A stretch of DNA of 64,000 nucleotides from Dictyostelium discoideum. Its lineage: Eukaryota. The stretch spans positions 6,144,001-6,208,000 of the forward strand of contig CM000151.3 of the NCBI GenBank assembly GCA_000004695.1, in the 5' to 3' direction. Position 1 is the stretch's first letter; every line of letters begins with the position of its first letter. The notes under the pieces were generated by a model. It had not been told where the DNA came from and did no database searches. It was given only the letters and a program-made list of their open reading frames with translations. Made by a program: the position numbers and the translations under genes. Positions 2,450-43,386 of the stretch are shown piece by piece.

Positions 2450-2640
2450 TGCATTACCATGTTTCCACGAATTCACCAAAAATAAATAAATAAAAAATAA
2501 TTATTTTTTTATTTTTTTTATTTTCAATTTTTTTTTTTTTTGGGCGCTTTTTTTTTTTTTTTTTTTTTTTTTCACAATTTTCCACAACTTTTATTTATTT
2601 ATTTTTCATATTTGATTAATTTTCTTTTTATTACAATTAA

Positions 2641-2910
2641 ATGCAAAGATTATTAGATACAATCAATAAAAAATTTTCACTTCAAACTGATATAGATCCA
2701 GCAAAACCAAAAAATAAAAAAAATGAAAACGAAGAAAAGAATAAAGTTCCAGGTAGAGATTCTCAATATAGGAAATTAAAAACGTTCATTGACAAAACTG
2801 CAAAGTCTGGTAAAGGAGATTCATTATATATTTGTGGACCACCTGGAACTGGTAAAAGTTTAACATTAACAACATTATCTAAAAATTTATCAACAAAGGT
2901 AATTATTTTT

Positions 2911-2970
<60 letters not shown>

Positions 2971-4346
2971 CATACTAACTAATTTCCTTTATTATTTACA
3001 GAAATATAAACCAATTTACATAAATTGTATGCAGTTTAATCAACCAATAAAAATTTATATAGAAATTTATAGAAAATTAGAGAATTTAGTAAGCACAAAA
3101 AAAGGTGTAAATGAATCATTAGATTTAATAGAATCAAAATATTTTTACGATTTTGATAATAAAGAAGAAGAAGGGATGGAAAAACATTCAGATAAAAATG
3201 AAAATGAAAAAAAAACAATGTGGGTAAAATATAGAGAGTGTATTAATCTCTTTTTTTTTTTTTTATTATTGCTAACACAATTTTTATTTTTTTTTTAAAA
3301 AGAATTTTAATTTTAGATGAAATTGATATTTTAATTGAAAAGTTTAGTAATATATTATATAGGATATTTGAATGGCCAACTAAAGATAGTTCAAAATTAA
3401 TATTATTTGGAATTGCAAATGATTTAGGATTAGTACAGAAATCATTACCAAGATTCGCTAAAATTGGTATGGAGATTGAAGTTTTACATTTTAAACCATA
3501 TACAGAGGAAGAAATTTTAAAGATTTTTCATCACCGTATAGATTTAGTTTTTAAAGAGTATAAATTAAAGGAAGAGGATCAAAAGGAACAATTATTCGAG
3601 CCAGAGACATTGGAAATGATATCAAAACAACTTTCAGTCAATGGTTGTGACATTAGGAAAGCATTTGATGTCATTAGACGTTTAGTCACTTTAAAATTTG
3701 AAAAATATATTGAAAATGCAGATTCAAACGATTCATTGGATGAAGATCCTGATGAGGTCATTGAATTTAAATCACCTGGTGAATATTTCTTTTCAATGGA
3801 TTTAGTACAAGATGTATTGGCTGAATTTTTCGAATGTAAAATAGTTTCAAATATGAAAAGTTTACCACTTCAAGCTCAAATCATTTTATTTTCTTCATTC
3901 CTTCCAGTTTTAAATTATGAAACTGTATGTATTTTTTTTTTTTTTTTTTTTTTATTTTTTAAAATAAAAAAAAAATAAAAATAAAAAAAAATAAAAAAAA
4001 AAATGAAATTTACTAATTTTAAAATTTTTAGTTATATAAATCATATAAAAGTCAATGTTCAATTATTAATTTCCCATTAATGGAAAAGTAAATATATTTA
4101 ATAATAAAAAATAATAATAATAATAATATTTTATTCCTAATTAATTTTTTTTTATTTCTTTTTATTACTTAAAAAAAAAACAGAGCAGATTTTGGTTTAT
4201 CAATTGATTCAATTATTTCAAATGGTTTAATGAAAATAGAAAGTGGTAAAAAAATTGCATTATTATTTTCAAAAGAGCAATTAATTTCTGCATTTAAATC
4301 CTCAATAATATTCGATCCCCTACTAGAAGAATTAAATAATTTATAA
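2641..4346 (+). CDS. Cdc6/Cdc18/Orc1-family AAA+ replication initiator, 5 exons
   Basis: Exons are 2641..2898, 3002..3104, 3302..3924, 4032..4087 and 4184..4346, 1203 nt in total (400 aa). Conserved elements are Walker A GPPGTGKS, Walker B ILILDEIDIL restored by the 3105..3301 intron, sensor-2 GCDIRKAFDVIRR and a winged-helix C-terminus. The 56-nt micro-exon LYKSYKSQCSIINFPLMEK aligns to human CDC6 LYEAYSKVCRKQQ. The ORF-track entries 3029..3298 (+) and 4169..4405 (-) are intron read-through and antisense artefacts of this gene. Confidence 0.8.
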
Positions 4347-4404
4347 CCAAAAAAATAATAATAATAGAAAATTAATAAATAATTCAAATTTTTGTTTAAA
4401 ATCA

Positions 4405-4437
<33 letters not shown>

Positions 4438-4750
4438 GAAAAAAATTATTTTAAGGTTTGATAATTATTCAAAAATAGAAATATTGATTAAAATAAAAAA
4501 AAAAAAAAAATCTAAGCCATTATTATTTATTTCTAATTTTTTATTTTTCAATGAAAACAGCAAATTTCTTTTTCCTGACTTTTTTTGATATTTTTCTTAT
4601 TTATTTCAAAAAATAAAAAAAATAAAAAAAAATAAGAAAAAATCTTTTTTTAGAGTCAGTTGAAAAAAAGATTTTTTTTTTTTGTTTTTTTATGTTTTTT
4701 TTTTTTTTTAGTTTAATATTCTAAAACAACAACAAATAAAATAGAAAGAA

Positions 4751-6499
4751 ATGAGATTAAAGGTTGCATGGAAAGATTTCAAATTTGTTATTCCAACTGG
4801 AAAGTCAAATAAAATTTCAGATTTATTTAAAGAAATTGCCAACAAATTTGCAGCTTACTCAACAGAAGAATTCATTGTTTCAGAATTAAAAACTTCTGAT
4901 GGTTTTGTTATTTCACCACATTATTTAGTCGAAGATGCTTTATTAGAAAATGATATTTTATTAGTTGTAGATTTTGAATCTTGGAAAAATGAACAATTTA
5001 AGTAAGTATTTTTATTTTTATTTTTTATTTTTTATTTTTTATTTTTTTTTAAATTTATTAATTCTTTTTTTTTTTTTTTAATTTTTTTTTTTAATTTTTT
5101 TTTTTTTATATATAGATTATGTACAAAAAGTTTTGTATTATTTGCATTAGAAAATTTCCAAGATGATAATAAATTAAGAGTTAATATTGGTTTAAATACA
5201 TTAAATAAATTATTTGTATCAATTGGATTATATAATAAATTATATAGATTAGAATTATTTGATTCAGCAGATCTTAAAGCATTCCATAAGGAAGGTGAAC
5301 ATCCAGTTACTCATTGGGAAGATGGTAAAGGTAATGATGCAAAAGTAATCTTTGTTGTTCAAGGTGGTATTGTTACTAAAGTTAAAACTGAAATTTCAAC
5401 CGTTTCTTCACCAAAACCATTAATTCAAACCATTGATATCAAATTAAATGGTACAAAGATTGAAGCTGGTGAAATTAAAACCATTCAAGAAGCTTATGAA
5501 CCATACGATAGTGATAGCAGTGTAGTTGTACCAGAGGAAGTTAGAGAAGGTAAATCTTATCAAGATTATGACCAATACGATTATTACACAACCGATGGTG
5601 GTAATGGAAGTGATGCATCTCATCATGCAGTCGTTATAGGTCCATCCGATATTCGTTTCGAACAAGTTGATATCACTCGTTCAGAAATGAGTAATTATGC
5701 CACTAGTAATGGTGGTTTCATGAATAGTTTCTTCACTGATTTCCAAATTACAAATAACAATGCCGATAGAGTCACCCTTTCAAAGATTACTGCAGAGTAT
5801 CAAGACAAACAAGGTAAATGGGTACCATTTACCAATGCTCTCTTTGGTACTAAAAGAAGTAACCAAATCAATGATTACTCTTGGAGAACTGATAACATTT
5901 TAATTCCATTAGAATCAAGAGATACCATTAAACTTTCAACCAATACTCGTGTAGAAATTAAAGGTGTCAATAGTGAACGTCTTCAACGTAGTCATCATTC
6001 ATTACCAAATGAATTACATATTAAAATTTACATTCATGATGACAAACAAAATGTAACCACCATTCCAGTATTTTACAAGAATAAAACTGAGGATCCAGTA
6101 ACAATGACATTGAAAACTCGTCAAGCTCGTGTTGAAAAACCAATCATTTTCTTCCAAACTGTTGATAACTTGGAAACCAATGTTCGTGGTTGGGTTCAAA
6201 TTGTTACCGATAAAAGTGATGGTAAAAATATCTTCAATTTCACATCTATTTGTTCCAATAGCTCTCATTATATCTCTCAAGCTGCTTTACACTCTTTTGT
6301 CTATGATGCAAAGAAAGAAAATCAAAAGAAATACAAAATCAAAAACTATTGTGCTAGTAACTCTGATTTCCAATTAGAAGTCTTTGCAAATGTAAACTTT
6401 GAAACCTCAAAAGTTGATTCCCTTTGTTTCGAATTATCCGATAAAAAAGGTATCTCTAAATCTGTTAAATATTTCCCAATTAAAAAACTAACTGAATAA
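4751..6499 (+). CDS. hypothetical protein (544 aa), no recognizable domain
   Basis: Exons are 4751..5001 and 5116..6499. The intron 5002..5115 has a GTAAGT donor and a TATAG acceptor. The downstream frame is open with no stop from 5117 to 6499. Codon usage is Dictyostelium-like. The in-frame stop at 5003 is explained by the donor site. Confidence 0.55.
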
Positions 6500-6628
6500 T
6501 TTAATTAAATTAAATTATTTTATTTATAAATAAAAATTTTAAATCATTTGTATTAATTATAAAAAAAAAAAAAAAATAAAAAAATAATTATATATTTTAA
6601 TTTTATTATTTTATTTTATTTTTTTATT

Positions 6629-6960
6629 TTAAAATGTTGATGATTTTGGTAATCTATGCATAAATGTAATTTTTGGTACATCTGGTATATTTTCACCATC
6701 TATGTGTGGTAATTCATGTTGACTAAGAATTTCAAAACCATGTTTTAAATAAAATTGTACATTTGCATCATTTGAACATTCAATATAACATCTTTTATGT
6801 TCTTTATCAAACTTTTTAAATAAACGATTTAATAATTTTGATGCTAATCCTTTCTTTCTATGTTCAATATGTGTTGATAATGTTAATAAATAATAAGTTT
6901 CAACTGCTTTATATTGTTCATAATAAATTCCAAAAAAATCTATATTATATTTAAAATTTA

Positions 6961-7007
<47 letters not shown>

Positions 7008-7464
7008 AATTATTATTATTATTTTAAAAAAAAAGTTGTTTAGATAATTTTTATTTTTATTTTTTTTTATTTTATTTTATTTTTTTACCTTCAATTTTTT
7101 GAATTCTATCATTTGTTAATTTATAACCTTTATTTAATAATTTTTCACTTTGATTTTTTTGAAATTTTGACCATTTTACTGAATCCCATTCAACATTTGG
7201 TGGTAATAACATTGCAACACATTTAAATGATGAATCGAATGAAACACATTCATTAAAGTCAATTAATTGTTCCATAAATCCTTCTTCCATTTCATATATA
7301 AAATGATCTTTATCTTCTTTTGAAAGTTCAAAAAATTGATAATTAAAGTATGGATCTTCTTTAAATGAATCTGTATTTATTTTTGAAACTTTCTCCATAT
7401 CCTCTCTTTTTATTATATATAATTCATCTTGATCTATATTATCTACACTATTTGCAAAACTCAT
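6629..7464 (-). CDS. GNAT-family N-acetyltransferase (228 aa), 2 exons
   Basis: Exons on the minus strand are 7464..7089 and 6939..6629. The intron 6940..7088 has a GTAAAA donor and an ATATAG acceptor. Exon 2 carries acetyl-CoA binding motif A (HIEHRKKGLASKLLNRL) and the motif YLKHGFE. Confidence 0.7.
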
Positions 7465-7505
7465 TTTCTATTTTATTATTCTATTATTTTAAAAAAATAT
7501 TTATT

Positions 7506-7553
<48 letters not shown>

Positions 7554-7789
7554 TTATTCTCAAAATATTCGCCAAACGGAAAAAGTTGACGGCAATGTCT
7601 CTAAAACAAAAACAAAAAAAAATTAATTTAAAAAAAAAAAAAAAATTAATTTTAAAAAAAAAAAAAAATCATACCCGATTGTGAAAATAAAAATAGAAAA
7701 AACAATTGAAAAAAAAAAAACAAAAAGAAATCTCTTTAATTTATTACCAAACTTCTTATTTTTTTTTTTTTTTTATTATTTTTTACTAA

Positions 7790-8000
7790 TTAATTTGATA
7801 TCAATATATCCTAATATTTCCATATTTTGGTCATTTATATTTAGAATTTGAAGTGAAGAAAAAGTATAATATTCTTTTATATTTGAAGCCATATATATTT
7901 TTAAATCAATTAATTGAACTAACTTTTTTTAATAATGATAATTGAGATTTTCTTTCAATTGAAAGATATTTAAGACTTTTTGGTAAAACTATATTTTTTC
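7790..8000 (-). pseudogene. FNIP-repeat gene fragment (3'-terminal remnant)
   Basis: About 210 bp match the 3' ends of the FNIP copies at 9366-9800 and 11890-12330 (e.g. taacttttttttaataa[tc]gataattgagattttc.ttcaattgaaag). It has an internal deletion and no ORF. Confidence 0.4.
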
Positions 8001-8048
8001 TACTTTTTTCTAGTTTTTTATTTAACTCTTTTTTTAAAAAATGAAATA

Positions 8049-8083
<35 letters not shown>

Positions 8084-8244
8084 CACCTTCACACGTTTTT
8101 TTTCTATTTACACCAAATCAAATAAAATAGTTTTTTCATTTTTTTTTTTCATTTTATTAATAAATATAAAAATAGAGTACTTAAAAAATAAACGAAATAA
8201 TAAAATATATAAAAAAAATGAATATGACAATTCTCTTTTTTTAA

Positions 8245-35942: not shown

Positions 35943-36801
<859 letters not shown>

Positions 36802-38054: not shown

Positions 38055-38223
38055 ATTATTATTATTTTTAAAAATTACATAACAATTTTTATTATTTATT
38101 TAAAATTTACTTATTGAATATTTGTACAACAAAAATGGTAAAAGATCATCAATCCCAGTTTCCTTCAATTCATCAAAATTGAACTATGTAATATATGGTG
38201 AATATAGGTATTAAAATTGAAGA

Positions 38224-38479
38224 TGTAATAAAGTTACTCTATAAAATTAATAGATATTAAATATGCATATTACATTACTAATTATAGTTGACACACATTT
38301 AAATAATATAATAATAATACTGTCAACTCATTATAAATAATATAAATACTAAAGAATAATTTTATTAACAATATTGAATATCATAAATATAAACTAATAT
38401 TAAATAAAGATAACAAAGTATTATTCAATTATATAATTATTAATTATATATATTTATAAAGCTAACAAGCTTTATTACA
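38224..38479 (+). repeat. 5' LTR (256 bp) of a tRNA-targeted Ty3/gypsy-type element (DGLT-A-like)
   Basis: It begins TGTAATAAAG and ends CTTTATTACA, forming terminal inverted repeats. It is about 99% identical to 40576..40813 plus 43282..43299. A putative primer-binding site TTTGGCGACATCG follows it. Confidence 0.8.
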
Positions 38480-38623
38480 TTTGGCGACATCGTCTTTCAA
38501 AAAAAAAAAAAAAAAAAAAAAATATATTATAAATATAAAGTTATCAAATTATTCAATCAATTAAAATTTTACATTAGATTAAATTTAATTTAATAAAATC
38601 TTAAAAAAAAAAAAAAAAAAAAA

Positions 38624-38668
<45 letters not shown>

Positions 38669-38671
<3 letters not shown>

Positions 38672-39946
38672 AGTAATAATGAAAACGTAATTTTTTCGGG
38701 TGATGGAAAAGGTTTATCATTTCGTAAATTCAAACACTTACTCTTATTAATTCATGGCGAGGAAATATCGAAAGCTGATATTATTAGAAAACTAAGAAAC
38801 AATGCATTGGAATATGCCGCAACATTGGATACAGACTTAACAGCAATGGAGATAATTGAAGATCTTAAAGATGCTTTTGGTATTGGTGATAGTGATGATT
38901 TAACAGAATTAACAAAGTTGGGAGAATATAAATACAATACATTAGATATATTAATTGGTAAATTTCTATCAAAATGTTCAGCAGTTGATATTTCAGAAAA
39001 GTTTAAAATACAATTGTTTTATTCAGCTGTTGGTACTGAATTGGGTATTGAAATTACAAAATGTGCACCAAAATCATTAAAAAGAGCAATAGATATTGCA
39101 AAGTCTTGTGAAGATGGTTCAATTCGTATCAAAGGTAGATCAATGTACACTGGTCAATTAGTTGCAAAGACGTTGCAAGAATTTGGTAATCAAAGATATC
39201 TAGGTTCGGGTTCTGGTTATTCTGCAACATCCCCTCAATATGTTACATCTCAAAACGAACAACAATCAATTGAATCTGAAGAAATTTCAACACCAATTTT
39301 TAAAAATCAATATTATAATCGATCACCACAAATGTCACCACAATCATCCCCTTATAAAGCACCACAAAATCAAGTAAATTCAATCACAAAATTTTGTAAA
39401 TATTGCAAAAAGAAAGGTCATGTAATTCAAGAGTGTTGGTCAAAAGATAAAAATAATAATAACAATTACAATAATAGAACTAATTCAATTACAATGGTCA
39501 ATAATAGTACAATTAATTCAATTGGAATAGATAGTATGAATGCAGCTTTATTAATAAATAATAAAAATGTTAGAGGTTTGATTGATACTGGTTCATCACT
39601 TACTATTGTTTGGGAAAGTATTGCTAAAAAGTTAAAATTAAAGATTGAAAATAAACAATATTCTGTTAAATCAGCATCAAATAATGAAATCAAAATCATT
39701 GGAATAAGTAACACAACAATTAAATTAGGTAAAGCATTGGCTAGAGTTAAAGTTAATGTTGTTAAAGATAATGATACATCAATTGATTGTATATTTGGCA
39801 TTGATACAATAATTGGATTAAATTTAGTCATTGATTTTAAAGAAATGATCATTAAGAATCTTGAATTCAATGTTGGTACCAAATTAATATCTAAAGAAAC
39901 CCAACCATGTATACAAACTATATTTAAAACAGTATCTGATTATTCA

Positions 39947-39977
<31 letters not shown>

Positions 39978-40438
39978 CATCAAAATCAGAATTATTAACA
40001 GATACTGATCATTTAATTGAAAATTTTAATTCTCATCATATACTATCAATCAAATCGTGTCCAACTATTGAAGAACAACTACCAATAGATTACGATATTC
40101 CAGAATTCTTATTCCAAGAACCAATAGATTCACCAATAACATCAAATTTACCATTAAAATCAATATCATTAAATCAAACAGAGAATTCAATAATTAAATC
40201 ACAAATAACCTCAATTCAACCATTAATAAGAAATCCATGTACAAATTTATCAAGATTAGATTTTGCTCATAATTTCGCCCAAATTGTAAATAATAACCTC
40301 AAACGTCCTTGTCTCATTAAGGATAATCTTGGTAAAGACCAATTATCACAAATTAATAAAAAAAGTTTCTCGTTCAAATATTCAAGTAGGAGATTATGTC
40401 TATTTACAATCCACTGTTGGTCCAGTAAAGCTCAATAA
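38669..40438 (+). CDS. retroelement Gag-protease polyprotein (589 aa); reverse transcriptase and RNase H are absent
   Basis: A CCHC zinc knuckle reads CKYCKKKGHVIQEC. A retropepsin active site reads LIDTGSSLTIV. No RT or RNase H motifs are found downstream. Confidence 0.7.
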
Positions 40439-40580
40439 ATCTTGGGAAGGTCTTTTCAAAGTACATGAGAGAGTTAGCGATTTAAAATTCAAATTAGTAT
40501 TGGATAATATTAAAAATCATGATGTGTTTTATATTAAAAGATTGAAAAATTTTTTTCAACTAAAAGGGGGGGATATGTAA
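40329..40580 (+). CDS. integrase C-terminal (SH3-like/GPY-F) fragment in a different frame, a remnant of the pol 3' end
   Basis: VGDYVYLQSTVGPVKLNKSWEGLFKVHERVSDLKFKLVLDNIKNHDVFYIKRLK fits the gypsy integrase C-terminal pattern (VGD.V.L...KL...W.GPF.V...V...AY.L.LP...H.VFHVS.LK). The deletion junction lies around 40280-40340. Confidence 0.55.
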   Translation: MVKTNYHKLIKKVSRSNIQVGDYVYLQSTVGPVKLNKSWEGLFKVHERVSDLKFKLVLDNIKNHDVFYIKRLKNFFQLKGGDM

Positions 40581-40813
40581 TAAAGTTACTCTATAAAATT
40601 AATAGATATTAAATATGCATATTACATTACTAATTATAGTTGACACACATTTAAATAATATAATAATAATACTGTCAACTCATTATAAATAATATAAATA
40701 CTAAAGAATAATTTTATTAACAATATTGAATATCATAAATATAAACTAATATTAAATAAAGATAACAAAGTATTATTCAATTATATAATTATTAATTATA
40801 TATATTTATAAAG

Positions 40814-41145
40814 TTTTTTTTTTTTTTTTTGAATTGGATAACGCAATTATTATTTGCTTCTCCTTGAGATGCTAGATCTCATTTTATTTTTTTTTTTTTT
40901 TTACAGGGTCTTTTTGATTAAAACATCTTTTTTGTCCAAACTTTTTTCTAAATCTTTTTTTATTTTATCGTCTGGTTCGTGATTGATGTTTATGACGTAT
41001 TTGAATTGTTTTTTTTTTTTTAATTGAGTTTTATCCACAATTTCGCTTATTTTTTGTAGGCATTTGTGTTGCTTAATATTTGTGGTGTTGTTTGTGATTT
41101 TCATTTTATTTTCTTTCTATCTTTTTTATTTTTCTGATTAACTTG

Positions 41146-41217
<72 letters not shown>

Positions 41218-42940
41218 TATTAAGAAAAAGTAACTGAAGTGAATTATTGTATTTTTTTGAGATGTTTTAGGAAAGTTTCTAATTGCGGGGTGTTGAATGA
41301 ATGATTTTGTGACAACCCCTTGTCTTGTTTTTATCAATTGGTGCGTGGTGTGTTATTTTGTTTTTATATTGTTGATTTATTGAGTAAATTTTATTTGTTT
41401 TTATATTTGTTTCAGTTAGAAGTGCTGCGTCCAAGCTTGTTGTTGTCTAAAACGGTGTTTATTATGCTGGCAGATTGGATGGTGTTGGATCCTTGGACGT
41501 TCCAAACACATATTCTTATTGTGTTTTTCTTTATAGTTTTATTTGGGGTAGATTTTTATCTACCTTTTGAAGTTTCTGGTTTATTTTGTCTTCTAACTGA
41601 TCTTTACTTTGTTCGTTGTGTTGTTGGTCTTGTGTGTTTGTGGGGTTTTTTGATTTATTGATTTGTTTTAGAATTTCCTTGTTGAAGTTGTCTATATCTT
41701 CATCCATTTTTGTTTTTATGCTTTTTTGTCCATATTCACCCAATTTTGGTTTGACTGGTGTTTTGTTGGTCTTGTTTGTTTTGTCTTGTTGTTTCTTTTT
41801 TGGTGTGTTTAACAATTTACTTGGTGAATCGATAATTTTCGATGGTGTACCATAGGTTGGGCTGAAACTCATGATATGTTTTATTGGAGAGGAGAAGAAC
41901 CATTGATTTGAAGGGATTGAAAGTGGGAATTCTATTTTTCTTATTGCATCAGTGTTTGGGCTGGTGAAGTCGAAGATATCATTTACCTCTCTAAGTTTTT
42001 CTTCCGTTGTTAGTCTCTTTGTTTCGCCGTGTTGTTTTATTGGTGTATTGTATGGAGATGGTGGTTCAATAGGTTTTTCTGATTTTGTTTTAATTTCTTG
42101 ATTTTTTATCGATTGGGTATTGATCTCATTCTCTATTCTTGTTAGTTCATCTACGTTTTCTAGTGATGCATCTATTACCTTTTGAGCTGTATCATCTAGG
42201 GCCATAAATGTTTTATCATTAGATGAGGAGGTGATTGGTGGGATAATGATTGTTCTTTTTCCTTGTTTTGGTATTTGTTCTGATGTAGATTTTGGTTGTT
42301 GTTCATCTGATTGTTTTTTATTTTTGTTTTCTTCTTGATTTTCTGGTAATGAGGTTTGATCTCTCCATCCTTTGTTGGAGTGACCAATTAATGTTAGATT
42401 GTCTAGTTCAATGATAGTGTCAAATTCTTCTACGACTCTTTTCACTGTTTTGATAATTAGAGTTTCGCCTTTAATTTCTGATTTAATTAGTTTACATCCT
42501 TCATTTTCTATTACCCATTCTATTTCTGTGAGTGATTTATACCAATCAAAATCTGTATACATATTTTTTGGTCTTATAGTGGTTATAAATTGTCCTTTTA
42601 ATTCTGCATCAAACATATTTACAAAATAGATTACTGTACTAATACTGTCTGTGAGAATTTTGAATGTATTATTACTTTTGATTAAAACATCTTTTTTGTC
42701 CAAACTTTTTTCTAAATCTTTTTTTATTTTATCGTCTGGTTCGTGATTGATGTTTATGACGTATTTGAATTGTTTTTTTTTTAATTGAGTTTTATCCACA
42801 ATTTCGCTTATTTTTTGTAGGCATTTGTGTTGCTTAATATTTGTGGTGTTGTTTGTGATTTTCATTTTATTTTCTTTCTATTTTTTATATTTTTCTTTAA
42901 AAAGTTAAAAATCTGGAAATTTTCTGATTAACTTGGTTCC

Positions 42941-42996
<56 letters not shown>

Positions 42997-43266
42997 TCTT
43001 TTTTATATGAAAAATGAAATAATCAAAAAAAGAGATTGTTGTTGTTGTTTGTTTTTTTTCGATCTGATTATTTTTTGCTTTTTTTTGAAAATTTTGCTAC
43101 GCAAAATTCTCAAAACGAAACAAATAATAAATTACAATAAAGTAAAAAGATGGCTTTTTAAGATAGTTTATTTATTTATTTATTTGTTTTTTAAGTCTTT
43201 TTTATATGAAAAATGAAATAATCAAAAAAAGAGATTGTTGTTGTTGTTTGTTTTTTTTCGATCTCC
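40814..43266 (-). mobile_element. TRE5-A-like non-LTR retrotransposon of short TRE5-A.2 type: ORF1 retained, ORF2 absent, ~2.45 kb, inserted into the 3' LTR of the LTR element
   Basis: A 15-bp target-site duplication TATATATTTATAAAG lies at 40799-40813 and 43267-43281. The minus-strand 3' end is oligo(A) (plus T17 at 40814-40830). The 5' end carries two copies of an A-module-like ~200-bp unit (42995-43194, 43195-43266). The junction is 47 bp upstream of tRNA-Arg, the distance characteristic of TRE5. Confidence 0.7.
41531..42865 (-). CDS. TRE5-A ORF1-like protein (444 aa)
   Basis: A long minus-strand ORF inside the element. Its first 65 codons are duplicated at 40901..41104. It has no catalytic motifs, which is expected for ORF1. 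Confidence 0.6.
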   Translation of the reverse strand: MKITNNTTNIKQHKCLQKISEIVDKTQLKKKQFKYVININHEPDDKIKKDLEKSLDKKDVLIKSNNTFKILTDSISTVIYFVNMFDAELKGQFITTIRPKNMYTDFDWYKSLTEIEWVIENEGCKLIKSEIKGETLIIKTVKRVVEEFDTIIELDNLTLIGHSNKGWRDQTSLPENQEENKNKKQSDEQQPKSTSEQIPKQGKRTIIIPPITSSSNDKTFMALDDTAQKVIDASLENVDELTRIENEINTQSIKNQEIKTKSEKPIEPPSPYNTPIKQHGETKRLTTEEKLREVNDIFDFTSPNTDAIRKIEFPLSIPSNQWFFSSPIKHIMSFSPTYGTPSKIIDSPSKLLNTPKKKQQDKTNKTNKTPVKPKLGEYGQKSIKTKMDEDIDNFNKEILKQINKSKNPTNTQDQQHNEQSKDQLEDKINQKLQKVDKNLPQIKL

Positions 43267-43313
43267 TATATATTTATAAAGCTAACAAGCTTTATTACAA
43301 AGAATTCATCAAA

Positions 43314-43386
43314 GCCCGTTTAGCAAAGTTGGAATTGCGGCAGCCTTCTAAGCTGCAGGTCGTGGGATCGAGACCCACAATGGGTG
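43314..43386 (+). tRNA. tRNA-Arg (anticodon UCU)
   Basis: Cloverleaf: acceptor GCCCGTT/AATGGGT, D-arm GCAA-AGTTGGAA-TTGC, anticodon stem GCAGC/GCTGC with loop CTTCTAA, and T-arm GTGGGATCGAGACCCAC. There is no intron. Confidence 0.8.

What the first reader, a model, noticed from the sequence alone, without database searches (positions are those of the whole stretch)
38480..40575. LTR retroelement with a gag-protease ORF joined directly to an integrase C-terminus (RT and RNase H deleted)
The internal region is only ~2.1 kb. The CCHC knuckle and the DTGS protease are intact in a 589-aa ORF. A second frame then encodes the integrase SH3-like/GPY-F module and runs into the polypurine tract and 3' LTR. 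The element is a non-autonomous deletion derivative that kept both LTRs, the PBS and the PPT. It may still be mobilisable in trans.
Basis: partly seen in the sequence, partly recalled or inferred. Interest (0 to 1): 0.55.

Follow-up and report, generated by a model that had tools for sequence, protein, structure and literature searches.

The report
Short, RT-less DGLT-A retrotransposon copy
This is a known Dictyostelium tRNA-gene-targeting LTR retrotransposon (DGLT-A) that has lost its reverse transcriptase, RNase H and integrase core. It is one of at least six copies of the same short form, which must have been copied by enzymes borrowed from full-length elements: real but ordinary transposon biology.

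Summary
The window is D. discoideum AX4 chromosome 2. The 589-aa ORF is exactly DDB_G0276009. The element is DGLT-A: identical 256-bp LTRs, the published DGLT-A primer-binding site 2 bp after the 5' LTR, a polypurine tract, a 4-bp target duplication, and insertion 14 bp upstream of tRNA-Arg(UCU).

Against a full-length DGLT-A (5,055 bp, 1,455 aa) it keeps Gag, protease, about 50 aa of the RNase H-integrase linker, and the last ~114 aa of integrase. Two deletions removed RT plus RNase H and the integrase zinc finger plus DDE core. The junctions lie at 40018-40075 and ~40229, not 40280-40340.

The "second frame" is a copy-specific +1 A in an A-run (40358-40364). Paralogues carry one uninterrupted 632-642-aa Gag-PR-IN-tail ORF. 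The 3' LTR is split 18 bp from its end by a later TRE5-A.2-type insertion (40814-43266).

The same 2.6-kb architecture sits at five other loci. Each has its own 4-bp target duplication and lies 12-28 bp from a different tRNA gene. The short form was therefore mobilised in trans repeatedly. Published work says AX4 has no complete DGLT-A, so this copy is probably immobile today. Known family, low interest.

The parts
38220..38223 (+). Left copy of the 4-bp target-site duplication (AAGA)
   Evidence: AAGA lies immediately before the 5' LTR and again at 43300-43303, after the true end of the 3' LTR.
38224..38479 (+). 5' LTR, 256 bp (TGTAATAAAG...CTTTATTACA)
   Evidence: It is 100% identical to the two pieces of the 3' LTR. 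It is 99.6% identical to the LTRs of paralogue L001.
38482..38498 (+). Primer-binding site TGGCGACATCGTCTTTC, 2 bp after the LTR
   Evidence: One search gives the position. The sequence and spacing are identical to the DGLT-A PBS described in PMC5006619.
38669..40438 (+). ORF1, 589 aa: Gag with CCHC knuckle (39395-39436), aspartic protease (Pfam match 39551-39805, DTGS 39584-39595), then linker remnants and the start of the IN tail. It is the AX4 gene DDB_G0276009.
   Evidence: tblastn aligns aa 1-397 of full-length DGLT-A to 38669-39874 at 79% identity.
39915..40017 (+). Diverged remnant of the leader just before the RT domain (full-length aa ~420-454)
   Evidence: 62% nucleotide identity to L006 4258-4360; blastp colinear to aa 454 of the 1,455-aa polyprotein.
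40018..40075 (+). Junction 1. About 1.27 kb of the full-length element (the RT and RNase H domains) is missing here.
   Evidence: homology jumps from L006 ~4360 to ~5628 (polyprotein aa 454 to 876).
40076..40228 (+). Remnant of the RNase H-integrase linker ('PIDYDIPE...IQP')
   Evidence: 40076-40104 and 40121-40153 match L006 5628-5656 and 5682-5714 at 79-83%; aa 470-519 match full-length aa 876-939 (E=2e-4).
40229..40230 (+). Junction 2. About 1.16 kb (the integrase H2C2 zinc finger and DDE core) is missing here.
   Evidence: homology jumps from L006 ~5852 to 7013 (polyprotein aa 939 to 1341).
40241..40556 (+). Integrase C-terminal (SH3-like, GPY/F region) remnant. It is read in ORF1's frame up to ~40342 and in the next frame from 40329. 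The GPY/F motif is degenerate (GLF).
   Evidence: aa 1309-1343 and 1345-1422 of 1423, E=3e-19. (SH3_Tf2-1, below cut-off). One search gives the reference motif RGPFKV.
40358..40364 (+). A7 homopolymer carrying the +1 frameshift that splits the fused ORF in this copy
   Evidence: paralogue L001 has A6 and one continuous 636-aa ORF; the same A7 is present at the orthologous locus in an independent assembly (L007).
40329..40580 (+). ORF2 as listed (83 aa): the frame-shifted tail. It ends at a stop codon that overlaps the first bases of the 3' LTR.
40562..40573 (+). Polypurine tract AAAAGGGGGGGA
   Evidence: It is conserved in L001 and L002.
40576..40813 (+). 3' LTR, first 238 bp
   Evidence: 100% identical to the 5' LTR.
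40814..43266 (-). Later insertion into the 3' LTR: a 2,453-bp TRE5-A.2-type non-LTR retrotransposon. It carries a 444-aa ORF1 (DDB_G0276011), no ORF2, an A17 tail and internal module duplications. Its 15-bp target duplication TATATATTTATAAAG lies at 40799-40813 and 43267-43281.
   Evidence: The TRE5-A.2 structure and TRE5 target preference come from PMC5633606 and PMC5911963.
43282..43299 (+). 3' LTR, last 18 bp (CTAACAAGCTTTATTACA)
   Evidence: exact; 0.01 matches expected by chance.
43300..43303 (+). Right copy of the 4-bp target-site duplication (AAGA)
43314..43386 (+). Target tRNA-Arg(UCU) gene. It starts 14 bp after the end of the 3' LTR.

Best explanation
The element is a copy of DGLT-A, the Ty3/gypsy-type retrotransposon of Dictyostelium discoideum that targets tRNA genes. 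It belongs to a 2.6-kb short form of that family.

What the short form keeps: both LTRs, the PBS, the PPT, and one ORF for Gag, protease, a linker remnant and the last ~110 aa of integrase.

What it lacks: two internal segments of about 2.4 kb in total, which encode RT, RNase H, the integrase zinc finger and the DDE core.

How it moves (inferred): it cannot reverse-transcribe or integrate itself. Its RNA must be packaged, copied and inserted by RT, RNase H and IN supplied by full-length DGLT-A elements. Published two-hybrid work assigns tRNA-gene targeting to RNase H and the IN N-terminal domain, which contact the TFIIIC subunit Tfc4. The short form lacks both, so the helper proteins also account for where it lands.

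History of this copy:
(1) It integrated 14 bp upstream of tRNA-Arg(UCU).
(2) A TRE5-A.2-type element later inserted 47-48 bp upstream of the same tRNA gene, which is inside the 3' LTR.
(3) It acquired a +1 A frameshift that cuts off the integrase tail.

Status of the claims. Shown: the anatomy, the family assignment, the deletions, the multiple independent insertions of the short form, and the order of the nested insertions. Inferred: trans-complementation by full-length elements, and present inactivity in AX4.
For: Family assignment. The PBS and its 2-bp offset are identical to published DGLT-A. ORF1 is exactly DDB_G0276009. Its Gag is 99% identical to the published DGLT-A polyprotein Q9GQ51. 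The insertion lies 14 bp upstream of a tRNA gene with a 4-bp TSD.

Deletions. A full-length element L006 (5,055 bp) and an intact 1,455-aa ORF P0179 exist in D. cf. discoideum. Only aa 1-454, 876-939 and 1341-1454 of that polyprotein have counterparts here.

Mobilisation after the deletion. The same architecture occurs at L001, L002, L003, L004 and L008. Their TSDs are TTTC, CTAA, TCCG, CATA and ACGG. They lie 12-28 bp from tRNA-Ile, Leu(UAA), Leu(CAA), Leu(AAG) and Val genes, in either orientation. Their LTR pairs are 98.5-100% identical.

Coding capacity. Five of the six copies carry one uninterrupted ORF of 632-642 aa. NG86 dN/dS is 0.18-0.23 for Gag, 0.08-0.30 for knuckle-PR, about 1.3 for the linker and about 0.5 for the IN tail.

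Contact with full-length elements. The IN tail of L002 is 100% identical to the full-length consensus, whereas the rest of L002 is short-form.

Nested insertion. The TRE5-type element has a 15-bp TSD made of LTR sequence.
Against: No retrotransposition assay exists for the short form, so trans-mobilisation is inferred from genomic footprints only.

Published surveys say that AX4 has no complete DGLT-A. The one AX4 integrase fragment I saw (DDB_G0286503) has a disrupted core. This copy therefore probably cannot move now, even though its LTRs are identical.

The purifying-selection signal in Gag-PR could be partly imported by recombination with full-length elements. Divergence is mosaic: between L001 and L002, dS is 0.14 in Gag, 0.02-0.03 in PR and linker, and 0.60 in the IN tail.

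The two short subfamilies (window type and L003 type) have slightly different junction 1 positions. Each is closer in Gag to a different full-length lineage. A single origin is therefore not proven.
Confidence: 0.9

Rival explanations
1. One-off relic. A full-length DGLT-A inserted here and then lost its RT-RNH-IN region in place by deletion, so the short structure never transposed.
For: The literature treats incomplete D. discoideum DGLT-A copies as remnants of a population that may no longer amplify. This particular copy also carries a frameshift and a nested insertion.
Against: Five other loci carry the same two deletions, the same linker remnants and their own distinct 4-bp TSDs next to different tRNA genes. 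The LTRs here are 100% identical, which leaves little time for two large in-place deletions.
Confidence: 0.03
2. Recurrent deletion rather than one propagating lineage. The window-type and L003-type short forms arose independently from two different full-length lineages, by template switching at the same short homologies.
For: In Gag, the window type is 84-88% identical to full-length P0179 and the L003 type is 86% identical to full-length P0204, yet the two short types are only 75% identical to each other. Junction 1 differs: L006 4360 to 5628 in the window type, 4400 to ~5814 in the L003 type. The L003 linker resembles the T-rich linker of P0204. The sequence 'SN|S' occurs on both sides of junction 2 and could act as microhomology.
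Against: The right edge of junction 2 coincides within a few residues in both types ('..N|SL(R/S)LDF'). P0180 is intermediate in form: it keeps RT residues up to 'DKEF' joined to '..YEIPENLF', which bridges the two versions of junction 1. Recombination with full-length elements is demonstrably present (L002 IN tail) and could by itself produce the mosaic similarities.
Confidence: 0.25
3. Domesticated gene. The Gag-PR(-IN tail) ORF is a host-co-opted protein, for example a Gag-derived restriction factor, rather than part of a mobile element.
For: The ORF is kept open in five of six copies. Gag-PR dN/dS is 0.08-0.30. The indels in the IN tail of L001 relative to L002 are 3, 6, 3 and 15 nt, all in frame. 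UniProt lists the products as 'Peptidase A2 domain-containing protein'.
Against: Every copy still has LTRs, PBS, PPT and a TSD and sits at a different tRNA gene. Copy number and position vary. L003 and L004 are identical copies at two loci, which indicates recent transposition. The window copy is frameshifted in two assemblies with no sign of repair. Selection on Gag-PR is expected for an element that must package its own RNA.
Confidence: 0.05
4. The element is a deleted Skipper (chromovirus) rather than DGLT-A.
Against: According to PMC5006619, Skipper has 390-bp LTRs, a polypyrimidine tract in place of a PBS, a chromodomain, and a centromeric location (Skipper-1) or a position downstream of tRNA genes (Skipper-2). 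Here the LTR is 256 bp, the DGLT-A PBS is exact, Pfam finds no chromodomain, and the site is 14 bp upstream of a tRNA gene.
Confidence: 0.01

Closest known systems
[quoted passage not shown] Consensus 5,054 bp, LTR 265 bp, single 1,437-aa Gag-PR-RT-RNH-IN ORF (Q9GQ51). Sources: PMC5006619, PMC6101501.
   Same: The PBS sequence and its 2-bp offset match. The PPT lies next to the 3' LTR. The LTRs end in TG...CA and are about 260 bp long. The TSD is 4 bp. The insertion is 14 bp upstream of a tRNA gene, and the short copies sit in either orientation. Gag is 99% identical, and the IN tail is homologous.
   Different: The element is 2,608 bp instead of ~5,055 bp. RT, RNase H, the IN zinc finger and the DDE core are deleted. 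The remaining ORF is 636 aa when intact, and 589 + 83 aa here. The papers I could read describe the D. discoideum copies only as 'not full-length'. They do not describe a recurrent short form.
TRE5-A.2, the ORF2-less non-autonomous form of the D. discoideum non-LTR retrotransposon TRE5-A. It is mobilised in trans by TRE5-A.1 ORF2p (PMC5633606, citing Beck et al. 2002).
   Same: The logic is the same in the same genome. An internally deleted element keeps its first (nucleic-acid-binding or structural) ORF and its cis signals, loses the enzymatic ORF, and still lands at the family's characteristic distance from tRNA genes. A copy of this type sits inside the DGLT-A 3' LTR in this window.
   Different: It is a non-LTR element that uses target-primed reverse transcription. 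It is unrelated in sequence. Its trans-mobilisation was shown experimentally, whereas that of short DGLT-A is only inferred.
Mouse IAP I-delta-1 elements (from my own knowledge, not checked here): internally deleted IAP retroelements whose 1.9-kb deletion fuses gag to pol. They are non-autonomous yet are the main source of new insertions.
   Same: An in-frame internal deletion produces a fused Gag-Pol-remnant ORF. LTRs, PBS and PPT are retained. Amplification depends on full-length relatives.
   Different: They belong to a different superfamily and host, and they retain part of RT. The resemblance is functional only.
TRIM and LARD non-autonomous LTR retrotransposons of plants (from my own knowledge)
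   Same: They are LTR-PBS-PPT shells that depend on autonomous partners.
   Different: TRIM and LARD have no coding capacity. The short DGLT-A keeps an intact Gag-protease ORF with dN/dS well below 1.

Membership tests
DGLT-A (Ty3/gypsy, D. discoideum) | [quoted passage not shown] | tested here: met
   There is an exact match at 38482-38498. The LTR ends at 38479.
DGLT-A (Ty3/gypsy, D. discoideum) | [quoted passage not shown] | tested here: met
   The LTRs are 256 bp and 100% identical. The PPT is at 40562-40573 and ends 2 nt before the LTR.
DGLT-A (Ty3/gypsy, D. discoideum) | [quoted passage not shown] | tested here: met
   The LTR ends at 43299 and tRNA-Arg(UCU) starts at 43314, leaving 14 bp between them. 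The TSD is AAGA.
DGLT-A (Ty3/gypsy, D. discoideum) | Protein homology to the DGLT-A polyprotein (Q9GQ51, or full-length P0179/P0033) | tested here: met
   Gag is 99% identical to Q9GQ51. tblastn with full-length P0033 aligns aa 1-397 at 79% identity and aa 1309-1422 at E=3e-19.
DGLT-A (Ty3/gypsy, D. discoideum) | Single ORF encoding Gag-PR-RT-RNH-IN (1,437 aa) | tested here: not met
   RT, RNase H, the IN zinc finger and the DDE core are absent. The element is therefore a deletion derivative of the family, not a complete member.
DGLT-A (Ty3/gypsy, D. discoideum) | No chromodomain after the integrase | tested here: met
   The ORF ends at the PPT and LTR. Pfam finds no chromodomain.
Non-autonomous LTR retrotransposon mobilised in trans | Retains LTRs, PBS and PPT but lacks RT and IN catalytic domains | tested here: met
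Non-autonomous LTR retrotransposon mobilised in trans | Multiple copies of the deleted form at independent sites, each with its own target-site duplication | tested here: met
   There are six loci with TSDs AAGA, TTTC, CTAA, TCCG, CATA and ACGG, next to six different tRNA genes.
Non-autonomous LTR retrotransposon mobilised in trans | An autonomous partner with matching LTR, PBS and Gag exists | tested here: inconclusive
   An intact 1,455-aa ORF (P0179) and a full-length element (L006) exist in D. cf. discoideum. The literature says none is complete in D. discoideum AX4. I made no genome-wide census of the new D. discoideum assemblies.
Non-autonomous LTR retrotransposon mobilised in trans | Experimental transposition that depends on helper-encoded RT and IN | not testable with these tools
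   This needs a marked-element retrotransposition assay.
Skipper (chromovirus) | Chromodomain, polypyrimidine tract in place of a PBS, 390-bp LTR, and a location that is centromeric or downstream of tRNA genes | tested here: not met
   None of these features is present.
TRIM/LARD-type non-coding LTR elements | No protein-coding capacity in the internal region | tested here: not met
   A 589-aa Gag-PR ORF is intact here, and paralogues carry 632-642-aa ORFs.

The most novel reading that the evidence does not exclude
The 2.6-kb form may not be debris. It may be a distinct, long-lived non-autonomous DGLT-A lineage that the literature available to me does not describe.

On this reading the lineage keeps its own Gag-protease under purifying selection and keeps the integrase tail in frame while that tail's sequence drifts. 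The tail is 40-54% identical among short forms and to full-length elements, whereas full-length lineages are 91-95% identical to one another. The lineage borrows RT, RNase H and IN, and with them tRNA-gene targeting, from full-length elements. It recombines with those elements. It accounts for at least four of the nine LTR-flanked DGLT-A copies reported in AX4, where no complete helper survives.

A further, weaker speculation (about 0.1): the Gag-PR-tail protein interferes with helper particles and contributed to the loss of autonomous DGLT-A in D. discoideum.
Probability: 0.4. Interest if true: 0.4.

Novelty: already known. Interest (0 to 1): 0.22.

Why it matters
For genome annotation, DDB_G0276009 and DDB_G0276011 are retrotransposon ORFs, not host genes. 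The locus is a textbook nested insertion of two non-autonomous retroelements at one tRNA gene. DGLT-A inserted at -14 bp and TRE5-A.2 then inserted at -47/-48 bp, inside the DGLT-A LTR.

For DGLT-A biology, the modest added value is this. The incomplete D. discoideum copies include a recurrent short form that transposed repeatedly after losing RNase H and the IN N-terminal domain. Those are the domains reported to contact TFIIIC. Precise targeting can therefore be supplied entirely in trans. A marked short element would be a natural substrate for a DGLT-A retrotransposition assay.

The published consensus polyprotein (Q9GQ51) also appears to take its N-terminal ~260 aa from these short copies.

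Tried and rejected
- Exact-sequence contig look-up of ORF1 found nothing, although the cluster look-up later showed it is DDB_G0276009.
- A word-indexed homology search with the RT start of P0004 returned only distant metagenomic RTs and not even P0004 itself, so it was uninformative.
- I could not open Glöckner et al. 2001 (Genome Res 11:585), the original DGLT-A description. I therefore cannot exclude that the short form is mentioned there.
- I looked in the window for a sequence complementary to the PBS, as a test of self-priming or of a tRNA primer. Only the PBS itself was found.
- I considered that the second frame might reflect programmed frameshifting or the deletion junction. I rejected both because paralogue L001 has A6 and a continuous ORF.
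- I considered that the 3' LTR was truncated. I rejected this when its last 18 bp were found 2.45 kb downstream.
- A weak LTR-like hit at 36012-36166 (71% identity) lies in AT-rich tandem repeats. I treated it as low-complexity similarity.
- Pfam on the 39875-40435 translation gave nothing. The linker homology was detectable only against a full-length DGLT-A.
Full report
**Source of the window.** The window is very AT-rich. The 589-aa ORF at 38669-40438 is residue-for-residue the AX4 protein DDB_G0276009 (Q552K2, 'Peptidase A2 domain-containing protein'). The neighbouring 444-aa minus-strand ORF at 41531-42865 is exactly DDB_G0276011. Both lie on the 8.48-Mb chromosome 2 record of Dictyostelium discoideum AX4.

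**Checking the observation.**
- Direct repeats at 38223-38461 and 40575-40813 are 100% identical.
- Reading the sequence shows the 5' LTR runs 38224-38479 (256 bp, TGTAATAAAG...CTTTATTACA). The 3' copy stops 18 bp short, at 40813.
- The missing 18 bp (CTAACAAGCTTTATTACA) occur exactly once more, at 43282-43299, where 0.01 matches are expected by chance. The 3' LTR is therefore split, not truncated. The two LTRs are 100% identical over all 256 bp.
Its CX2CX4HX4C knuckle is at aa 243-256 and DTGS at aa 306-309.
- Pfam gives Asp_protease_2 at 43.2 bits, above its cut-off. The knuckle profile scores below its cut-off, although the motif is exact.
- The 83-aa ORF in the next frame (40329-40580) hits the Tf2-type integrase SH3 profile only below threshold, at 24.2 bits against 30.
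- The purine run AAAAGGGGGGGA ends 2 nt before the 3' LTR.

[quoted passage not shown] It gives a 5,054-bp consensus with 265-bp LTRs and insertion 13-33 bp upstream of tRNA genes. It counts 20 insertions in AX4, none of them full-length. Here that PBS is exact at 38482-38498. The true 3' LTR end (43299) lies 14 bp before tRNA-Arg(UCU) at 43314-43386. AAGA flanks both ends as a 4-bp target duplication. The element is DGLT-A, not Skipper.

**What interrupts the 3' LTR.** Positions 40814-43266 (2,453 bp, minus strand) begin, on their own strand, at 43266 and end in A17 at 40814-40830. They carry the 444-aa ORF1 and no ORF2. They contain internal duplications at 40912-41229 versus 42676-43014 and at 42968-43065 versus 43167-43264. 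They are flanked by a 15-bp duplication of LTR sequence, TATATATTTATAAAG, at 40799-40813 and 43267-43281. The insertion point is 47-48 bp upstream of the tRNA gene. This fits the TRE5 preference of 40-54 bp. It also fits the ORF2-less, trans-mobilised TRE5-A.2 form. The order of events is clear: DGLT-A inserted first, and the TRE5 element then inserted into its LTR.

**What was deleted.**
- A profile search recovered full-length DGLT-A polyproteins from 'Dictyostelium cf. discoideum': P0033 (1,423 aa) and P0179 (1,455 aa, intact ORF).
- Pfam on P0033 shows PR 290-375, RVT_1 475-632, RNase H 695-818, IN H2C2 1062-1121, rve 1138-1234, and the SH3/C-terminal region 1362-1420.
- The published D. 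discoideum consensus protein Q9GQ51 (1,437 aa) was also recovered.
- tblastn of P0033 against the whole 64-kb window finds only aa 1-397 (38669-39874, 79% identity), aa 1309-1343 (40241-40342) and aa 1345-1422 (40329-40556, next frame).
- No [YF]xDD motif exists in any frame of the internal region. Pfam finds nothing in 39875-40435.
- I fetched the full-length element itself: L006, LTRs at about 2605-2881 and 7383-7659, 5,055 bp.
- Against the polyprotein reconstructed from L006, with its single frameshift bridged (1,455 aa, the same length as P0179), the frame-corrected window protein aligns at aa 1-451 to 1-454, aa 470-519 to 876-939 (E=2e-4) and aa 525-629 to 1341-1454.
- At DNA level, 39915-40017 matches L006 4258-4360. 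40076-40104 and 40121-40153 match 5628-5714. 40231-40310 matches 7013-7092.
- There are therefore two deletions. Junction 1 lies within 40018-40075 and removes about 1.27 kb (RT and RNase H). Junction 2 lies at about 40229-40230 and removes about 1.16 kb (IN zinc finger and DDE core). A ~50-aa piece of the RNase H-IN linker ('PIDYDIPE...') survives between them.

**The second frame.** Paralogue L001 (DDB_G0279931) is 98.7% identical over the whole element and has one uninterrupted 636-aa ORF. The alignment shows the window has A7 where L001 has A6, at 40358-40364. The same A7 is present at the orthologous locus of an independent assembly (L007, GCA_054883475.1), so it is not a sequencing error. 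The frame change is a copy-specific +1 frameshift. It is neither the deletion junction nor a designed feature. In this copy the GPY/F motif reads GLF, whereas the consensus reads RGPFKV.

**The short form is a family.**

| Locus | Element | Identity to window | ORF | TSD | Nearest tRNA gene | Distance |
|---|---|---|---|---|---|---|
| Window | 38224-43299 (2,608 bp without the TRE5 insert) | - | 589 + 83 aa | AAGA | Arg(UCU) | 14 bp |
| L001 | 5569-8162 | 98.7% | 636 aa | TTTC | Ile(AAU) | 14 bp |
| L008 (DDB_G0271456) | 2565-5192 | 97% | 642 aa | ACGG | Val(AAC) | 28 bp |
| L002 | 5562-8179 | 91.5% | 632 aa | CTAA | Leu(UAA) | 14 bp |
| L003 | 5509-8179 | ~76% | 633 aa | TCCG | Leu(CAA) | 12 bp |
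| L004 | 5513-8179 | ~76% | 633 aa (identical to L003) | CATA | Leu(AAG) | 14 bp |

- The five other loci share the 2.6-kb architecture. A fourth AX4 copy, DDB_G0287455, is partial.
- Each TSD is perfect and different, and the elements sit in either orientation relative to the tRNA gene.
- LTR pairs are 98.5-100% identical.
- These are independent integrations of an element that already lacked RT, RNase H and the IN core.
- Kling et al. report that DGLT-A RNase H and the IN N-terminal domain contact the TFIIIC subunit Tfc4 (abstract). The short form encodes neither. Its precise placement therefore argues that helper proteins did the work. This is an inference.

**Selection and recombination.**
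- Nei-Gojobori estimates between short copies give dN/dS of 0.18-0.23 for Gag, 0.08-0.30 for knuckle-PR, about 1.3 for the linker and about 0.46-0.50 for the IN tail.
- Full-length lineages are 91-95% identical to each other in the IN tail. The window/L001 tail is only 50-54% identical to the full-length tails, and the L003-type tail 53-55%. The two short types are 40% identical to each other. Constraint on the tail therefore looks relaxed in the short forms.
- Even so, the tail stays open in five of six copies. The indels of L001 relative to L002 are 3, 6, 3 and 15 nt, all in frame.
- The IN tail of L002 is 100% identical to the D. discoideum full-length consensus, while its linker is short-form. 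Between L001 and L002, dS is 0.02-0.03 in PR and linker but 0.60 in the tail. That indicates recombination with a full-length element.
- Because of this mosaicism, part of the purifying-selection signal may be imported rather than generated within the short lineage.
- The same mosaicism leaves open whether the window-type and L003-type short forms share one origin. The right edges of junction 2 coincide and P0180 is an intermediate form, but junction 1 differs and each type is nearest in Gag to a different full-length lineage.

**Mechanism and current status.** The best reading is a non-autonomous DGLT-A derivative. Its RNA carries LTR-derived ends, the PBS and the PPT, and encodes its own Gag and protease. 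It was packaged, reverse-transcribed and integrated by Pol proteins of full-length DGLT-A. In AX4, published surveys find no complete DGLT-A. The AX4 integrase fragment DDB_G0286503 has a disrupted core. This copy is therefore probably not mobile now, despite its identical LTRs. Whether the TRE5 insertion 18 bp from the LTR end would affect its transcript depends on the unmapped polyadenylation site.

**Novelty.** The element, its family, its target preference and the incompleteness of D. discoideum copies are all in the literature and in the AX4 annotation. I did not find the following described in the papers available to me: that the incomplete copies include a recurrent, ORF-preserving short form which transposed at least six times. 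I could not open the original 2001 description. This is ordinary transposon biology in a well-studied genome, so interest is low.

Noticed in passing
window 40814-43266 (minus strand); TSD at 40799-40813 and 43267-43281: A 2,453-bp TRE5-A.2-type non-LTR retrotransposon sits inside the DGLT-A 3' LTR, 47-48 bp upstream of tRNA-Arg(UCU). It has a 444-aa ORF1 (DDB_G0276011), no ORF2, an A17 tail and duplicated 5' modules. Its 15-bp target duplication consists of LTR sequence. Two different non-autonomous retroelements are thus nested at one tRNA gene.
   Followed up: partly
L007 9529-11912 (orthologue of window ~43258 onward, assembly GCA_054883475.1): In this independent D. discoideum assembly, a second TRE5 element follows the first in tandem, after the same 15-bp target TATATATTTATAAAG. 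A 1,047-aa RVT_1 ORF lies downstream of it. The site seems to have been hit twice and differs from the AX4 reference.
   Followed up: partly
L002 7552-7896 compared with window 40241-40556: The integrase tail of the short copy L002 is 100% identical to the full-length D. discoideum consensus (Q9GQ51). The tail of the otherwise very similar L001 and window copies is only ~53% identical to that consensus. Between L001 and L002, dS is 0.60 in the tail and 0.02-0.03 in the adjacent linker. This points to recombination between short and full-length DGLT-A.
   Followed up: partly
P0203 (Q9GQ51) compared with window 38669-39400: The published 1,437-aa DGLT-A consensus polyprotein is 99% identical to the short copies in Gag, up to about aa 260. 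In the protease region it falls to 77% identity and there resembles full-length-type copies. The consensus may therefore be a chimera whose 5' part came from the short form.
   Followed up: partly
L002 6001-7916; L003 and L004 6001-7919; L007 5001-6912; L006 3001-7370: Gene models in the new assemblies place short introns inside DGLT-A ORFs. L002, L003 and L004 in fact contain uninterrupted ORFs of 632-633 aa. In L007 and L006 the 'intron' merely bridges a frameshift. The deposited proteins (617, 612, 625 and 1,423 aa) are therefore not the natural products.
   Followed up: yes
window 38482-38498: The DGLT-A PBS has no complementary sequence elsewhere in the window. PMC5006619 reports that no complementary tRNA or other genomic sequence exists in D. 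discoideum. The primer for minus-strand synthesis remains unexplained.
   Followed up: no
L006 2406-2606: The full-length DGLT-A in D. cf. discoideum abuts an inverted partial DGLT-A LTR (83-85% identity). ARAGORN finds no tRNA gene within 2.6 kb on either side. It may be a nested or atypical insertion.
   Followed up: no
P0180 and P0037 (D. cf. discoideum ACTFIY): Further short-form variants exist in a sister taxon. P0180 retains RT residues up to '...YPSDKEF' joined to the linker '...YEIPENLF', and it has lost the protease. This looks like an intermediate junction state between the window-type and L003-type short forms.
   Followed up: no
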